Shown here in pieces: positions 32,301 through 35,300 of a stretch of 64,000 bases of DNA. How positions within the stretch are numbered: the stretch's first letter is position 1; each line of letters starts with the position of its first letter. The position numbers are program-made. Origin of the DNA: Escherichia coli (lineage in GTDB: Bacteria > Pseudomonadota > Gammaproteobacteria > Enterobacterales > Enterobacteriaceae); the NCBI RefSeq assembly GCF_030013205.1, contig NZ_CP122648.1; one strand, 5' to 3'.

Positions 32301-35300
32301 TCTCCTATCTGGCAAATGCCCGCAAACTGGGTGACCGCCTGATTGTCGCCGTCAACAGCGATGCCTCCACCAAACGGCTGAAAGGGGATTCCCGCCCCGT
32401 TAACCCGCTCGAACAGCGTATGATTGTGCTGGGCGCACTGGAAGCGGTCGACTGGGTGGTGTCGTTTGAAGAAGACACGCCGCAGCGCTTAATTGCCGGG
32501 ATCCTGCCAGACCTGCTGGTGAAAGGTGGCGACTATAAACCAGAAGAGATTGCCGGGAGTAAAGAAGTCTGGGCCAACGGCGGCGAAGTGCTGGTGCTCA
32601 ATTTTGAAGACGGTTGCTCGACGACCAACATCATCAAGAAGATCCAACAGGATAAAAAAGGCTAACCGGAAAGCGTTTCACAGATCTCGCTTCGTACCTG
32701 GCAGGCCTATTGACGCTGTTGTTTTTTCAACCTAGAGTAAAGGAACAAGGGTAAGGGAGGATTTCTCCCCCCTCTGATGAGTTGTTAGTAAGTCGGGAAA
32801 CTTAACAGTAACAACACAACCAGTATGATGACGAACTTCATCATAACCCTTTCCTTCTGTAAGGCCCCTTCTTCGGGAGGGGCTTTCCCGTTTCAGCCCC
32901 TTGCTGACTCCCCGATTGTTGATGAGCGCCGGACCCCGCGCAACGCTTTCCCTGAGGCAGTTTTGCCTTCCCCGAGTGGTCACGCAAAACGCTGCAACAG
33001 CCTGATCATTTGCACCTTTTAGCGGAACGCAGATATAAAAAATCCCCGGCTTTTTGGGCCAGGGATATGTGTTAATGAAACCTTCTTGACGCTGATTTTT
33101 TTTCAACCTAAAGTAAAGGAACAAGGGTGAGGGAGGATTTCTCCCCCCTCTGATTGGCTGTTAATAAGTGGCGAAACTTACAAGTAACAACACAATCAGT
33201 ATGATGACGAGCTTCATCATAACCCTTTCCTTCTGTAAGGCCCCTTCCTCGGGAGGGGCTTTCCCGTTTCAGCCCTTTGCTGACTTCCCGATTGTTGATG
33301 AGCGTCAGACCCCGCGCAATGCTTTCCCAGAGGCAGTTTTGCCTTCCCCGAGCGGTCACGCAAAAGGCTGCAACGACCTGAGCATTTGCAGTTTTTTGCG
33401 GAATGCAGATATAAAAAATCCCCGGCTTTTTGGGCCAGGGATGTTCATAGTTGAAAATTTATTCTACGTTTTCGGCGACGGGAGTTGTTGAGGTTAAGGG
33501 TGAAGTCAATGCCGCCAGCGAGCCGCCAGAAACACCGATTTCATTGAGCAAGGAGTCAATCAGTGGTGCCTGTGTGCGGTAAGAGAGTGCGGCAGACAAT
33601 GCCTGTTCTGCCAGGTTTCCGCCACTAACGCTGCCTGATGCTGCATCCCCCGCAGCACCACCTCGGTTTAATCCATCGACCTGAATAATCTTGATGCCGT
33701 CGATAGACTTCATCGGCTCAACGGATTTCTCTATTACTGCAGGTAACGACTGTAATAGCGCCAGTTTGAATTTAAGGCTGGTTTGTTCATCAGAAAGTAC
33801 GTTGATAGCGTCGTTCAGCGCACGTTGCGCTTCTGCTTCCGCCAGACCCTTTTTACGCGTAGCTTCGGCTAACTCAACGATTGCCGCCGCCTGCATCTCT
33901 GCGGCTTCTTTCTCTGCTTTCGCCCGCACGGTCAGTTCAACCGCTTTGGTTTCTGCATCCTGCGCGGCAGCGATTAGGGCAACTTGTTTAGCACGATCGG
34001 CTTCTGCGGTCTGGCGAGTTGTTTCTACGTTTTGCTGGGCGCTTACCGCTTCTGCAAGTGCAAGGTTGGCACGCGCTTCCGCTTGTGACTGCTGTTCCGA
34101 TTTGGCGGCAATAGCGATCGATTTCGTCTGGTTGGCGATTTCGGTGACCTGCTGCTGTTCGATCTCTTTAATGCGAACTTCACGTTCAGCTTCAACTTTT
34201 CTGGAACGGACGGCCTGTTCGCGGTCGATTTCTGTTTCCTGAATCTGTCGTTCAGCCAGAATTCGCGTCTGCTCTGCTTCCCGACGACGCTCGGCCTCAA
34301 AAGCCGCAATTTTCGCATTCTGCTCAGCGGTACGGGTTTTAACCTGCTGCTCCTGCTCAAGCGTCATAAACGCTTCTTGTTGTTCAATCTCCAGCTTCCG
34401 CGAAAGCGCATCACGGTTTTTCTCACGCACCGCAACTTCTACATCCTGTTCAACTTCGTTACGTTCGCGACGACGGCGCTCCGTCTCCTGCGTCAGCTTG
34501 GTTAAACCTTCGGCGTCAAAGGCGTTGTTAGGATTGAAATGTTCTTTCGACGTCTGGTTAAAGTTGGTAAGTGAAACGCTTTCCAGTTCCAGGCCATTTT
34601 TCGACAGATCTTCAGCTACGGTATTTTGTACGCCCTGCACGAAGTTCTCGCGGGTATCCTGTAACTCATGCATGGTCATTTGTGCAGCTGTTGCACGGAG
34701 GGCATCGACAAATTTATCTTCAACCAACATACGTAAGTCTTCAGGCGACAGGGTGCGTTGCCCCAGCGTCTGGGCGGCGGTGGCAATACCTTCCACTGAC
34801 GGTTTTACCCGCACAAAGAAAGCGACAACGACATCGACGCGCATACGATCTTTCGTAATCAGGCTATCAATGGTTGAGCGGCTGACTTCCAGCTTCAGAG
34901 TATTCATATTGATGGGGATTATTTCATGAAAGATCGGCATCACGATTGCGCCACCGCTCATTACCACTTTTTGCCCACCTAAACCAGTACGAACAAAAGC
35001 TTGCTCTGCCGAAGCGCGACGATAGAGCCTGGCGAAAATAATTCCAATAATAAACAGAATGCATACGGCAATAATCGCGGTAAACATCCAGGAGGGCATA
35101 GAATTAACAATATCATCCATTATTAAATTTCCTTTTGATTAATATATTACAATATTTGGGGCCAGGGATTGTTTTCCGCCAAATATCGCGTTGCAGAAAG
35201 TCGGCAAATAATTAACACTTTGTCTCCTTTAGTGAAAATTTTTCCTTCTTCAGGCTCCAGTAGTAAATAATGTATTTGGCCAAATTGATCGGTGAGTTTT

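What the first reader, a model, noticed from the sequence alone, without database searches (positions are those of the whole stretch)
32710..33270. Tandem ibs/sib type I toxin-antitoxin duplicates between hldE and yqiK
Two about 350-bp repeat units each encode a 19-aa hydrophobic Ibs toxin on the reverse strand and a fully overlapping antisense Sib RNA with its own sigma-70-like promoter and terminator. This is a known system, but the ORF track shows only spurious longer frames here, so it is easy to miss.
Basis: partly seen in the sequence, partly recalled or inferred. Interest (0 to 1): 0.3.

Follow-up and report, generated by a model that had tools for sequence, protein, structure and literature searches.

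The report
Tandem sibE/ibsE and sibD/ibsD toxin-antitoxin pair

Summary
Confirmed, and already known. The window is E. coli, 100% identical here to strain K_EC180. The 793-bp hldE-yqiK gap holds two direct repeat units of about 357 nt, with a period of 376 nt and 91% identity. Each gives a full-length Rfam SIB_RNA hit on the + strand (139 and 143 bits; gathering score 56). Each carries a 19-codon ORF on the - strand that matches Pfam Ibs_toxin end to end (44 and 40 bits; cut-off 27).

Copy 1 (Sib 32745-32888, ibs 32785-32844) is the ortholog of K-12 sibE/ibsE at 97.2%. Copy 2 (Sib 33121-33264, ibs 33161-33220) is the ortholog of sibD/ibsD at 96.6%. Gene order matches K-12. RefSeq annotates both peptides in the identical record. 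The sib promoters and the +1A are identical to K-12. The longer ORFs are not conserved.

One unreported detail: in this strain the two Sib RNAs are identical over positions 92-127, which covers TRD2, one of the two target-recognition domains. K-12 SibD and SibE differ there. About 147 of 5,426 complete E. coli genomes share this state. It predicts cross-repression between the two copies, which is untested.

Interest is low.

The parts
31232..32665 (+). hldE coding sequence (left flank, context only)
   Evidence: 477-aa ORF. Annotated as hldE in the 100%-identical RefSeq record.
32710..33066 (.). Repeat unit 1 (the sibE/ibsE unit)
   Evidence: Direct repeat with period 376 and 91% identity.
32710..32738 (+). 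sibE promoter, TTGACG-17-TAGAGT. The transcript starts at A32745.
   Evidence: Promoter scan, 9 of 12 matches. The 40 nt upstream plus +1 are identical to K-12 sibE.
32745..32888 (+). SibE antitoxin RNA, 144 nt
   Evidence: 97.2% identical to annotated K-12 sibE, end to end. Rfam RF00113, 139.4 bits. Fold -50.6 kcal/mol, z = -3.1.
32785..32844 (-). ibsE toxin ORF, MMKFVIILVVLLLLSFPTY (L4F relative to K-12). The Shine-Dalgarno sequence AAGGAAAGGG lies just upstream.
   Evidence: Translation. Pfam PF13956, 44.3 bits, model positions 1-19 of 19. RefSeq CDS WP_001387082.1.
32861..32886 (+). SibE intrinsic terminator hairpin (11-bp stem, UUCG-type loop), followed by UUUCCCGUUU
   Evidence: Minimum-free-energy structure. 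The K-12 annotated 3' end falls 2 nt after the stem.
32915..32943 (-). Candidate ibsE promoter, TTGCGC-17-AACAAT (weak, 7 of 12). The predicted mRNA start is about 32907.
   Evidence: It is the only -35/-10 candidate on the - strand upstream of ibs. Its position agrees with the 18-nt 5' overhang of ibsC mRNA over SibC in PMC2943612. It is conserved in K-12. This part is inferred, not mapped here.
33032..33066 (-). Terminator-like hairpin plus T-run on the - strand, between ibsD and ibsE. It is a duplicate of the yqiK terminator.
   Evidence: Terminator scan, 9 pairs. It is 100% identical over 35 nt to the copy at 33408-33442.
33086..33442 (.). Repeat unit 2 (the sibD/ibsD unit)
33086..33114 (+). 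sibD promoter, TTGACG-17-TAAAGT. The transcript starts at A33121.
   Evidence: Promoter scan. Identical to the K-12 sibD promoter and +1A. This 35-bp promoter drives NAD-capped SibD in K-12 (PMC12956327).
33121..33264 (+). SibD antitoxin RNA, 144 nt
   Evidence: 96.6% identical to K-12 sibD. Rfam 143.4 bits. Fold -57.4 kcal/mol, z = -4.9.
33161..33220 (-). ibsD toxin ORF, MMKLVIILIVLLLVSFATY (A18T relative to K-12)
   Evidence: Translation. Pfam PF13956, 40.3 bits. RefSeq CDS WP_100249717.1.
33237..33262 (+). SibD intrinsic terminator hairpin
33291..33319 (-). Candidate ibsD promoter, TTGCGC-17-AACAAT
   Evidence: Han et al. mapped an ibsD start with conserved promoter elements in this region, but their figure could not be read, so the exact match is inferred.
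33408..33442 (-). yqiK intrinsic terminator (hairpin 33442-33418 plus T-run). It starts 17 nt after the yqiK stop codon.
   Evidence: ORF coordinates.
33459..35120 (-). yqiK (flotillin family) coding sequence (right flank, context only)
32836..32871 (+). 36-nt segment (Sib positions 92-127, covering TRD2) that is identical in both copies. The second copy is at 33212-33247.

Best explanation
The hldE-yqiK intergenic region carries the two tandem type I toxin-antitoxin modules known in E. coli K-12 as sibE/ibsE (next to hldE) and sibD/ibsD (next to yqiK).

In each unit a weak promoter on the - strand makes an mRNA of about 160 nt. That mRNA encodes a 19-residue, almost wholly hydrophobic Ibs peptide. 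When over-produced, the peptide inserts into the inner membrane, depolarises it and stops growth.

On the + strand a stronger sigma-70 promoter makes a 144-nt structured Sib RNA. It is perfectly complementary to the ibs Shine-Dalgarno sequence, start codon and whole ORF. Sib first contacts the mRNA through two independent target-recognition domains. TRD1 is a loop opposite the 3' part of the ORF. TRD2 is a single-stranded stretch opposite the translation-initiation region. Pairing then spreads, translation is blocked and the mRNA is degraded, so the toxin is normally not made.

Shown here: the identity, anatomy and orthology of every sequence element. Taken from the literature: toxicity, repression and the TRD mechanism, established for the K-12 genes, chiefly ibsC/SibC and ibsD/SibD. 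Inferred: the exact ibs promoter and mRNA ends in this strain.
For: - Rfam SIB_RNA gives two full-length hits of 139 and 143 bits against a gathering score of 56.
- The copies are 97.2% and 96.6% identical to annotated K-12 sibE and sibD, and the 5' and 3' ends coincide.
- Gene order matches K-12.
- Both 19-aa peptides match Pfam Ibs_toxin over the whole model. They are annotated as Ibs family toxins in a 100%-identical RefSeq record. GRAVY is 2.2 and 2.5.
- The sib promoters are found by scan and are identical to K-12, including the +1A.
- The predicted Sib folds are more stable than shuffles (z = -3.1 and -4.9) and end in an 11-bp terminator hairpin.
- The locus is present in 5,415 of 5,426 complete E. 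coli genomes.
- Mechanism comes from PMC2943612. Membrane depolarisation and helix formation by IbsC come from PMC8309996.
Against: Nothing found here contradicts this reading. The caveats are as follows.

- No expression or toxicity data exist for this strain.
- The NCBIfam scan of the padded 21-residue queries returned no Ibs model.
- The terminator scan missed the Sib terminators because their T-run is interrupted.
- The physiological role of chromosomal Ibs toxins in E. coli remains unsettled in the literature.
- The Salmonella homolog IbsA is reported to inhibit the Fo sector of ATP synthase rather than to act as a general membrane-damaging peptide (bioRxiv 10.1101/2025.05.26.656083).
Confidence: 0.97

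Rival explanations
1. This is the same two modules, but in this lineage they are no longer insulated from each other. Because TRD2 is identical in SibE and SibD, each Sib RNA can also repress the neighbouring ibs mRNA. The pair would then behave as one redundant antitoxin pool guarding two toxins. This refines the main explanation rather than replacing it.
For: - The two Sib RNAs are identical over positions 92-127. This stretch covers the complements of the start codon and the Shine-Dalgarno sequence, and the single-stranded J1/7 segment.
- K-12 SibD and SibE differ at positions 113, 115 and 116, plus a 1-nt indel.
- Han et al. showed that giving SibC the TRD2 of SibD, which forms a 25-bp contiguous helix, was enough to repress ibsD, and that either TRD alone suffices.
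- Only about 147 of 5,426 genomes carry the 36-mer twice. One of them was checked and has both copies at this locus.
Against: - This is a prediction only.
- Position 91, in the P6 loop, still differs between the copies. Han et al. found that TRD2 also needs a P6-loop contact in truncated SibC constructs.
- SibA and SibE share the same region in K-12, yet SibA does not repress ibsE. A shared TRD2 therefore does not guarantee cross-repression.
- TRD1 still differs at 5 positions (44, 50, 52, 61, 62).
Confidence: 0.5
2. One or both copies are decayed, non-functional remnants of a duplication (inert 'QUAD'-type intergenic repeats) and not live toxin-antitoxin modules.
For: - About a fifth of complete E. 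coli genomes manage with a single copy at this locus. That is 5 of 24 evenly spaced records, with examples.
- The two peptides each differ by one residue from K-12.
Against: - Both ORFs are intact, with a Shine-Dalgarno sequence and a start and stop codon.
- Both sib promoters are identical to the functional K-12 promoters.
- Both terminators are intact.
- Both Rfam hits are full length with no truncation.
- The IbsE L4F allele, WP_001387082.1, recurs in many unrelated strains.
- N-terminal residues other than V5 were dispensable for IbsC toxicity.
Confidence: 0.04
3. The real genes here are the longer ORFs of 65-130 aa that the ORF lister reports across the repeats, and the resemblance to Sib/Ibs is incidental.
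For: A frame on the - strand stays open for 111 codons in both window units. ORFs of 130, 83, 65 and 107 aa are listed.
Against: - The same frame is interrupted in the K-12 units, where the longest stop-free stretches are 70 and 53 codons.
- None of these ORFs is annotated in K_EC180 or K-12.
- They start with TTG or GTG, and they overlap promoter and terminator elements on both strands.
Confidence: 0.01

Closest known systems
E. coli K-12 sibE/ibsE (b4611/b4666) and sibD/ibsD (b4447/b4664)
   Same: - Same intergenic position between hldE and yqiK, in the same order and relative orientation.
- The RNAs are 97.2% and 96.6% identical, with coincident ends.
- The sib promoters and the +1A are identical.
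- The peptides are 18 of 19 residues identical.
   Different: - IbsE carries L4F and IbsD carries A18T.
- SibE here has CUGU at positions 113-116, as SibD does, where K-12 SibE has AUAC. TRD2 is therefore shared between the two copies.
- TRD1 of SibD differs from K-12 at positions 49, 50 and 62.
sibC/ibsC of E. coli K-12, the experimentally dissected member (Han et al. 2010, PMC2943612)
   Same: Same Rfam and Pfam families and the same architecture. A Sib RNA of about 140 nt fully overlaps a 19-codon ibs ORF and its translation-initiation region. The P1-P7 fold ends in a terminator.
   Different: sibC/ibsC is a single copy at a different locus, between fau and serA. Its TRD1 and TRD2 sequences differ, and a 3-nt deletion follows TRD2.
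ldr/rdl long direct repeats and zor/orz, other tandemly duplicated type I toxin-antitoxin loci of E. coli
   Same: These are also tandem duplications, in one intergenic region, of a small hydrophobic toxin gene with an RNA antitoxin (PMC2887945).
   Different: The toxins belong to unrelated families of 35 and 29 aa. Their antitoxins overlap only the 5' region of the mRNA rather than the whole ORF. This last point is established knowledge and was not tested here.

Membership tests
Sib RNA (Rfam RF00113, SIB_RNA) | Full-length match to the covariance model above the curated gathering score | tested here: met
   139.4 and 143.4 bits against a gathering score of 56. Model positions 1-147 of 147, not truncated.
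Sib RNA (Rfam RF00113, SIB_RNA) | Own sigma-70 promoter and intrinsic terminator delimiting a transcript of about 140 nt | tested here: met
   The promoters are found by scan and are identical to K-12. An 11-bp terminator hairpin sits at the annotated 3' end. The generic terminator scan did not call it because the T-run is interrupted.
Sib RNA (Rfam RF00113, SIB_RNA) | Encoded antisense to an ibs ORF and its ribosome-binding site, and fully overlapping both | tested here: met
   Sib 32745-32888 contains ibsE 32785-32844. Sib 33121-33264 contains ibsD 33161-33220. The Shine-Dalgarno complement lies at Sib positions 103-112.
Sib RNA (Rfam RF00113, SIB_RNA) | Abundant constitutive transcript in vivo | not testable with these tools
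   No expression data exist for this strain. This has been shown for K-12 (PMC2943612, PMC12956327).
Ibs toxin (Pfam PF13956) | Hydrophobic peptide of 18-19 residues matching the family profile end to end | tested here: met
   44.3 and 40.3 bits against a cut-off of 27, profile positions 1-19 of 19. GRAVY 2.19 and 2.46. The queries were padded with 2 upstream in-frame residues to reach the tool's 20-aa minimum.
Ibs toxin (Pfam PF13956) | Toxic on over-expression (membrane depolarisation and growth arrest) | not testable with these tools
   Shown for K-12 Ibs proteins (reviewed in PMC8309996) but not for these alleles.
Orthologs of the K-12 sibD/ibsD-sibE/ibsE tandem locus | Same flanking genes and order, with each copy closer to its K-12 counterpart than to the other copy | tested here: met
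   Gene order is hldE-E-D-yqiK. Identities are 97.2% against 90.3% for E and 96.6% against 91.0% for D.
Cognate-only Sib/ibs pairing (a property of the K-12 paralogs, not a membership criterion) | Both TRD1 and TRD2 differ between paralogous Sib RNAs | tested here: not met
   TRD1 differs at positions 44, 50, 52, 61 and 62. TRD2 is identical between the two copies across positions 92-127. This bears on specificity, not on family membership.

The most novel reading that the evidence does not exclude
In a minority E. coli lineage (about 2.7% of complete genomes, this window included), exchange between the tandem copies has given SibE the TRD2 of SibD. The two antitoxins are therefore predicted to cross-repress each other's toxin mRNAs. 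Across strains the TRD2 tetranucleotide (CUGU, AUAC or CUAU) is shuffled between the two positions. This suggests that recombination between copies keeps resetting antitoxin specificity in tandem type I modules.
Probability: 0.45. Interest if true: 0.3.

Novelty: already known. Interest (0 to 1): 0.12.

Why it matters
For annotation, this is a reminder that 19-codon toxin genes and their antisense RNAs are invisible to length-thresholded ORF tracks. RefSeq does annotate both peptides in the identical record, but it lists no Sib RNA features there.

Biologically the locus is textbook. The only mildly new element is the natural allele in which the two tandem antitoxins share one of their two target-recognition domains. 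It is a ready-made natural test of the TRD model of cognate discrimination from Han et al. 2010. It also hints that specificity in tandem type I modules is reshuffled by recombination between copies.

Tried and rejected
- The NCBIfam scan of the padded peptides found no Ibs model. This counts as uninformative, because Pfam and the RefSeq product names both identify the family.
- The generic terminator scan did not flag the Sib terminators. Folding and the K-12 annotated 3' ends resolved this.
- The founding paper (Fozo et al. 2008, PMC2597788) and the 2008 MMBR review (PMC2593563) are not held. Statements about toxicity and cognate specificity are therefore cited second-hand, through PMC2943612 and PMC8309996.
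- Figure 4B of Han et al., which shows the mapped ibs start sites, could not be read. The ibs promoter coordinates are therefore inferred from the single -35/-10 candidate and the reported 18-nt overhang.
- The longer ORFs were considered and rejected.
- A REP-element reading of the minus-strand hairpins was checked against the RepRanger paper. It only lists sibE as REP-associated, with no detail, so this was not pursued.
- A literature search for reports of TRD2 variation or gene conversion between sibD and sibE found none.
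Full report
**Observation.** The region 32666-33458 is the gap between a 477-aa ORF ending at 32665 on the + strand and a 553-aa ORF ending at 33459 on the - strand. It contains a direct repeat. Copies at 32710-33009 and 33086-33385 are 91% identical, with a start-to-start spacing of 376. A gapped alignment extends the units to about 32710-33066 and 33086-33442, with a 19-nt spacer between them. Rfam returns two full-length SIB_RNA (RF00113) matches on the + strand, at 32710-32859 (139.4 bits) and 33086-33235 (143.4 bits). The gathering score is 56 and the E-values are about 1e-29. On the - strand each unit has an ATG-ATG-initiated 19-codon ORF. These are MMKFVIILVVLLLLSFPTY at 32785-32844 and MMKLVIILIVLLLVSFATY at 33161-33220. 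The stated end of the finding (33270) is the end of the second Sib terminator, whereas the second repeat unit continues to about 33442.

**Identity.** The 951 bases around the locus are 100% identical to E. coli strain K_EC180. Most of the query is present in 5,415 of 5,426 complete E. coli genomes. In the K_EC180 RefSeq record the flanks are hldE and yqiK. Both small ORFs are annotated as 'type I toxin-antitoxin system Ibs family toxin' (WP_001387082.1, labelled ibsE, and WP_100249717.1). K-12 MG1655 has the order yqiK, sibD/ibsD, sibE/ibsE, hldE, which is the window's order inverted.

Aligning the annotated K-12 RNAs onto the window gives these results:
- Copy 1 is 97.2% identical to sibE and 91.0% to sibD. 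It maps to 32745-32888.
- Copy 2 is 96.6% identical to sibD and 90.3% to sibE. It maps to 33121-33264.

Copy 1 is therefore sibE/ibsE and copy 2 is sibD/ibsD. Pfam Ibs_toxin (PF13956) matches both peptides over all 19 profile positions, at 44.3 and 40.3 bits against a cut-off of 27. The queries carried two extra upstream residues to satisfy the tool's 20-residue minimum. NCBIfam returned no Ibs model for those padded queries. I treat that as uninformative.

**Anatomy.**
- *Sib promoters.* TTGACG-17-TAGAGT lies at 32710-32738 and TTGACG-17-TAAAGT at 33086-33114. The scan found 4 promoter-like sites in the region against 0.8 expected. The K-12 5' ends map 7 nt after each -10 box, at an A. The 40 nt upstream of each start are identical to K-12.
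- *Sib folds.* The folds have minimum free energies of -50.6 and -57.4 kcal/mol, with z-scores of -3.1 and -4.9 against shuffles. Each ends in an 11-bp hairpin followed by UUUCC, where the K-12 3' ends lie. The generic terminator scan missed these hairpins because the T-run is interrupted.
- *ibs translation signals.* On the - strand each ibs ORF is preceded by AAGGAAAGGG, 3 nt before the ATG.
- *Candidate ibs promoters.* The only -35/-10 candidate upstream of each ORF is TTGCGC-17-AACAAT, at 32943-32915 and 33319-33291. It is conserved in K-12. It would start the mRNA about 19-20 nt beyond the Sib 3' end. That fits the 18-nt 5' overhang reported for ibsC mRNA over SibC and the 159-163-nt ibs mRNAs of Han et al.. 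This placement is inferred.
- *Minus-strand hairpins.* Each unit also carries a terminator-like hairpin plus T-run on the - strand, at 33066-33042 and 33442-33418. The two are 100% identical over 35 nt, while the neighbouring sequence is 89-93% identical. The distal one begins 17 nt after the yqiK stop codon and is most simply the yqiK terminator. Its duplicate lies between ibsD and ibsE. The ancestral duplication therefore included the yqiK terminator, and the inner copy may insulate ibsE from read-through. That last point is inference.

**Longer ORFs.** The lister's 20-aa floor cannot show the Ibs ORFs. It reports frames of 130, 65, 83 and 107 aa instead. One minus-strand frame stays open for 111 codons in both window units but is broken in the K-12 units, at 70 and 53 codons. 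None of these frames is annotated in either genome.

**Mechanism (from the literature, not tested here).** Ibs proteins are 18-19-residue hydrophobic peptides whose over-production is lethal, and constitutive Sib RNAs prevent this (PMC2943612). IbsC forms an alpha-helix and depolarises the membrane within minutes of induction. It also induces the psp operon (PMC8309996).

SibC recognises ibsC mRNA through two independent domains. TRD1 (+46 to +68, the P5 loop) targets the ORF. TRD2 (+99 to +115, including the single-stranded J1/7 segment) targets the translation-initiation region. Pairing then spreads, and repression is accompanied by mRNA degradation. Swapping either TRD of SibC for that of SibD is enough to redirect it to ibsD.

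In K-12 the 35-bp sibD promoter with its +1A yields NAD-capped SibD, and ppGpp with DksA enhances transcription from sibC, sibD and sibE (PMC12956327). The same promoter sequence and +1A are present here. A Salmonella homolog, IbsA, is reported to bind the a and b subunits of the ATP synthase Fo sector and to lower ATP (bioRxiv 10.1101/2025.05.26.656083). The molecular target of Ibs peptides may therefore be more specific than general membrane damage.

**The one non-textbook detail.** The two window Sib RNAs differ at 12 of 144 positions: 9, 35, 36, 38, 44, 50, 52, 61, 62, 76, 91 and 128. They are identical over positions 92-127. That stretch covers the complements of the start codon (98-100) and the Shine-Dalgarno sequence (103-112), and the whole J1/7 segment.

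K-12 SibD and SibE differ at 113, 115 and 116 (CUGU against AUAC) and by one inserted C. The window's SibE thus differs from K-12 SibE at just four positions. Three of them convert its TRD2 to the SibD form. The fourth (position 91) makes IbsE L4F.

A search with the shared 36-mer finds 4,217 places in 4,070 genomes, with at most two per genome. About 147 genomes (2.7%) therefore carry it twice. The one example checked, strain 28Eco12, has both copies at this locus with the same peptides as the window. That figure agrees with the 132 genomes that are at least 99% identical over the whole region and the 167 that are at least 99% identical to the window's sibE.

In eight sampled loci the tetranucleotide is mosaic:

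| Strain | hldE-side copy (sibE position) | yqiK-side copy (sibD position) |
|---|---|---|
| K-12, 1EC187 | AUAC | CUGU |
| EC1515 | CUAU | AUAC |
| Window, 28Eco12 | CUGU | CUGU |
| MS7163, M24 (single copy) | CUAU | none |
| M114 (single copy) | CUGU | none |

This pattern fits recombination or gene conversion between the copies. By the logic of Han et al.'s swap experiment, a shared TRD2 predicts mutual cross-repression in this lineage.

Three caveats apply. Position 91, in the P6 loop, still differs. TRD1 still differs. And SibA and SibE share this same region in K-12, yet SibA does not repress ibsE. I found no paper describing this variation. It remains an untested prediction of modest interest.

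**Copy number.** About a fifth of complete genomes have a single copy between hldE and yqiK. This estimate comes from 5 of 24 evenly spaced records, with examples, and from a mean of 1.77 places per genome. It is consistent with the literature's view that these tandem type I loci arise by lineage-specific duplication and loss (PMC2887945).

**Verdict.** The finding is real, correctly located and correctly interpreted. It is a known system in a known position, in a species where it was first described. Novelty: already known. Interest: low (0.12).

Noticed in passing
window 32857-32860 and 33233-33236 (Sib positions 113-116); loci L002, L006-L010: The TRD2 tetranucleotide is shuffled among E. 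coli strains and between the two tandem positions (CUGU, AUAC or CUAU). In EC1515 the yqiK-side copy carries AUAC, which K-12 has in the hldE-side copy. The window's state, with both copies CUGU, occurs in about 147 of 5,426 complete genomes.
   Followed up: partly
loci L003, L007, L010 (strains M24, MS7163, M114): Roughly one fifth of complete E. coli genomes have only one sib/ibs unit between hldE and yqiK. In the examples checked, the retained peptide is the IbsE-type L4F allele.
   Followed up: partly
window 33032-33066 and 33408-33442 (- strand): The yqiK terminator hairpin and T-run is duplicated with the repeat unit. It is 100% identical over 35 nt, while the adjacent repeat sequence is 89-93% identical. 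The inner copy sits between ibsD and ibsE.
   Followed up: partly
window 53338-53461 (+): There is an Rfam STnc490 (Hfq-binding RNA) hit of 146.5 bits. It lies directly upstream of an IS200C-family tnpA gene, on the same strand, and is inserted between parE and a frameshifted TonB-dependent siderophore receptor gene. It is probably the leader end of an IS200 element.
   Followed up: partly
window 36701-36849 (+): An FMN riboswitch (Rfam, 120.9 bits) lies upstream of ribB. It is annotated as such in the RefSeq record.
   Followed up: yes
window 12410-12485 (-): A tRNA gene with anticodon CAT. ARAGORN calls it tRNA-Met. From its position relative to K-12 it may be ileX, but this was not checked.
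   Followed up: no
locus L009 (strain 1EC187), yqiK: yqiK is annotated as a frameshifted pseudogene in strain 1EC187, next to an intact two-copy sib/ibs locus.
   Followed up: no
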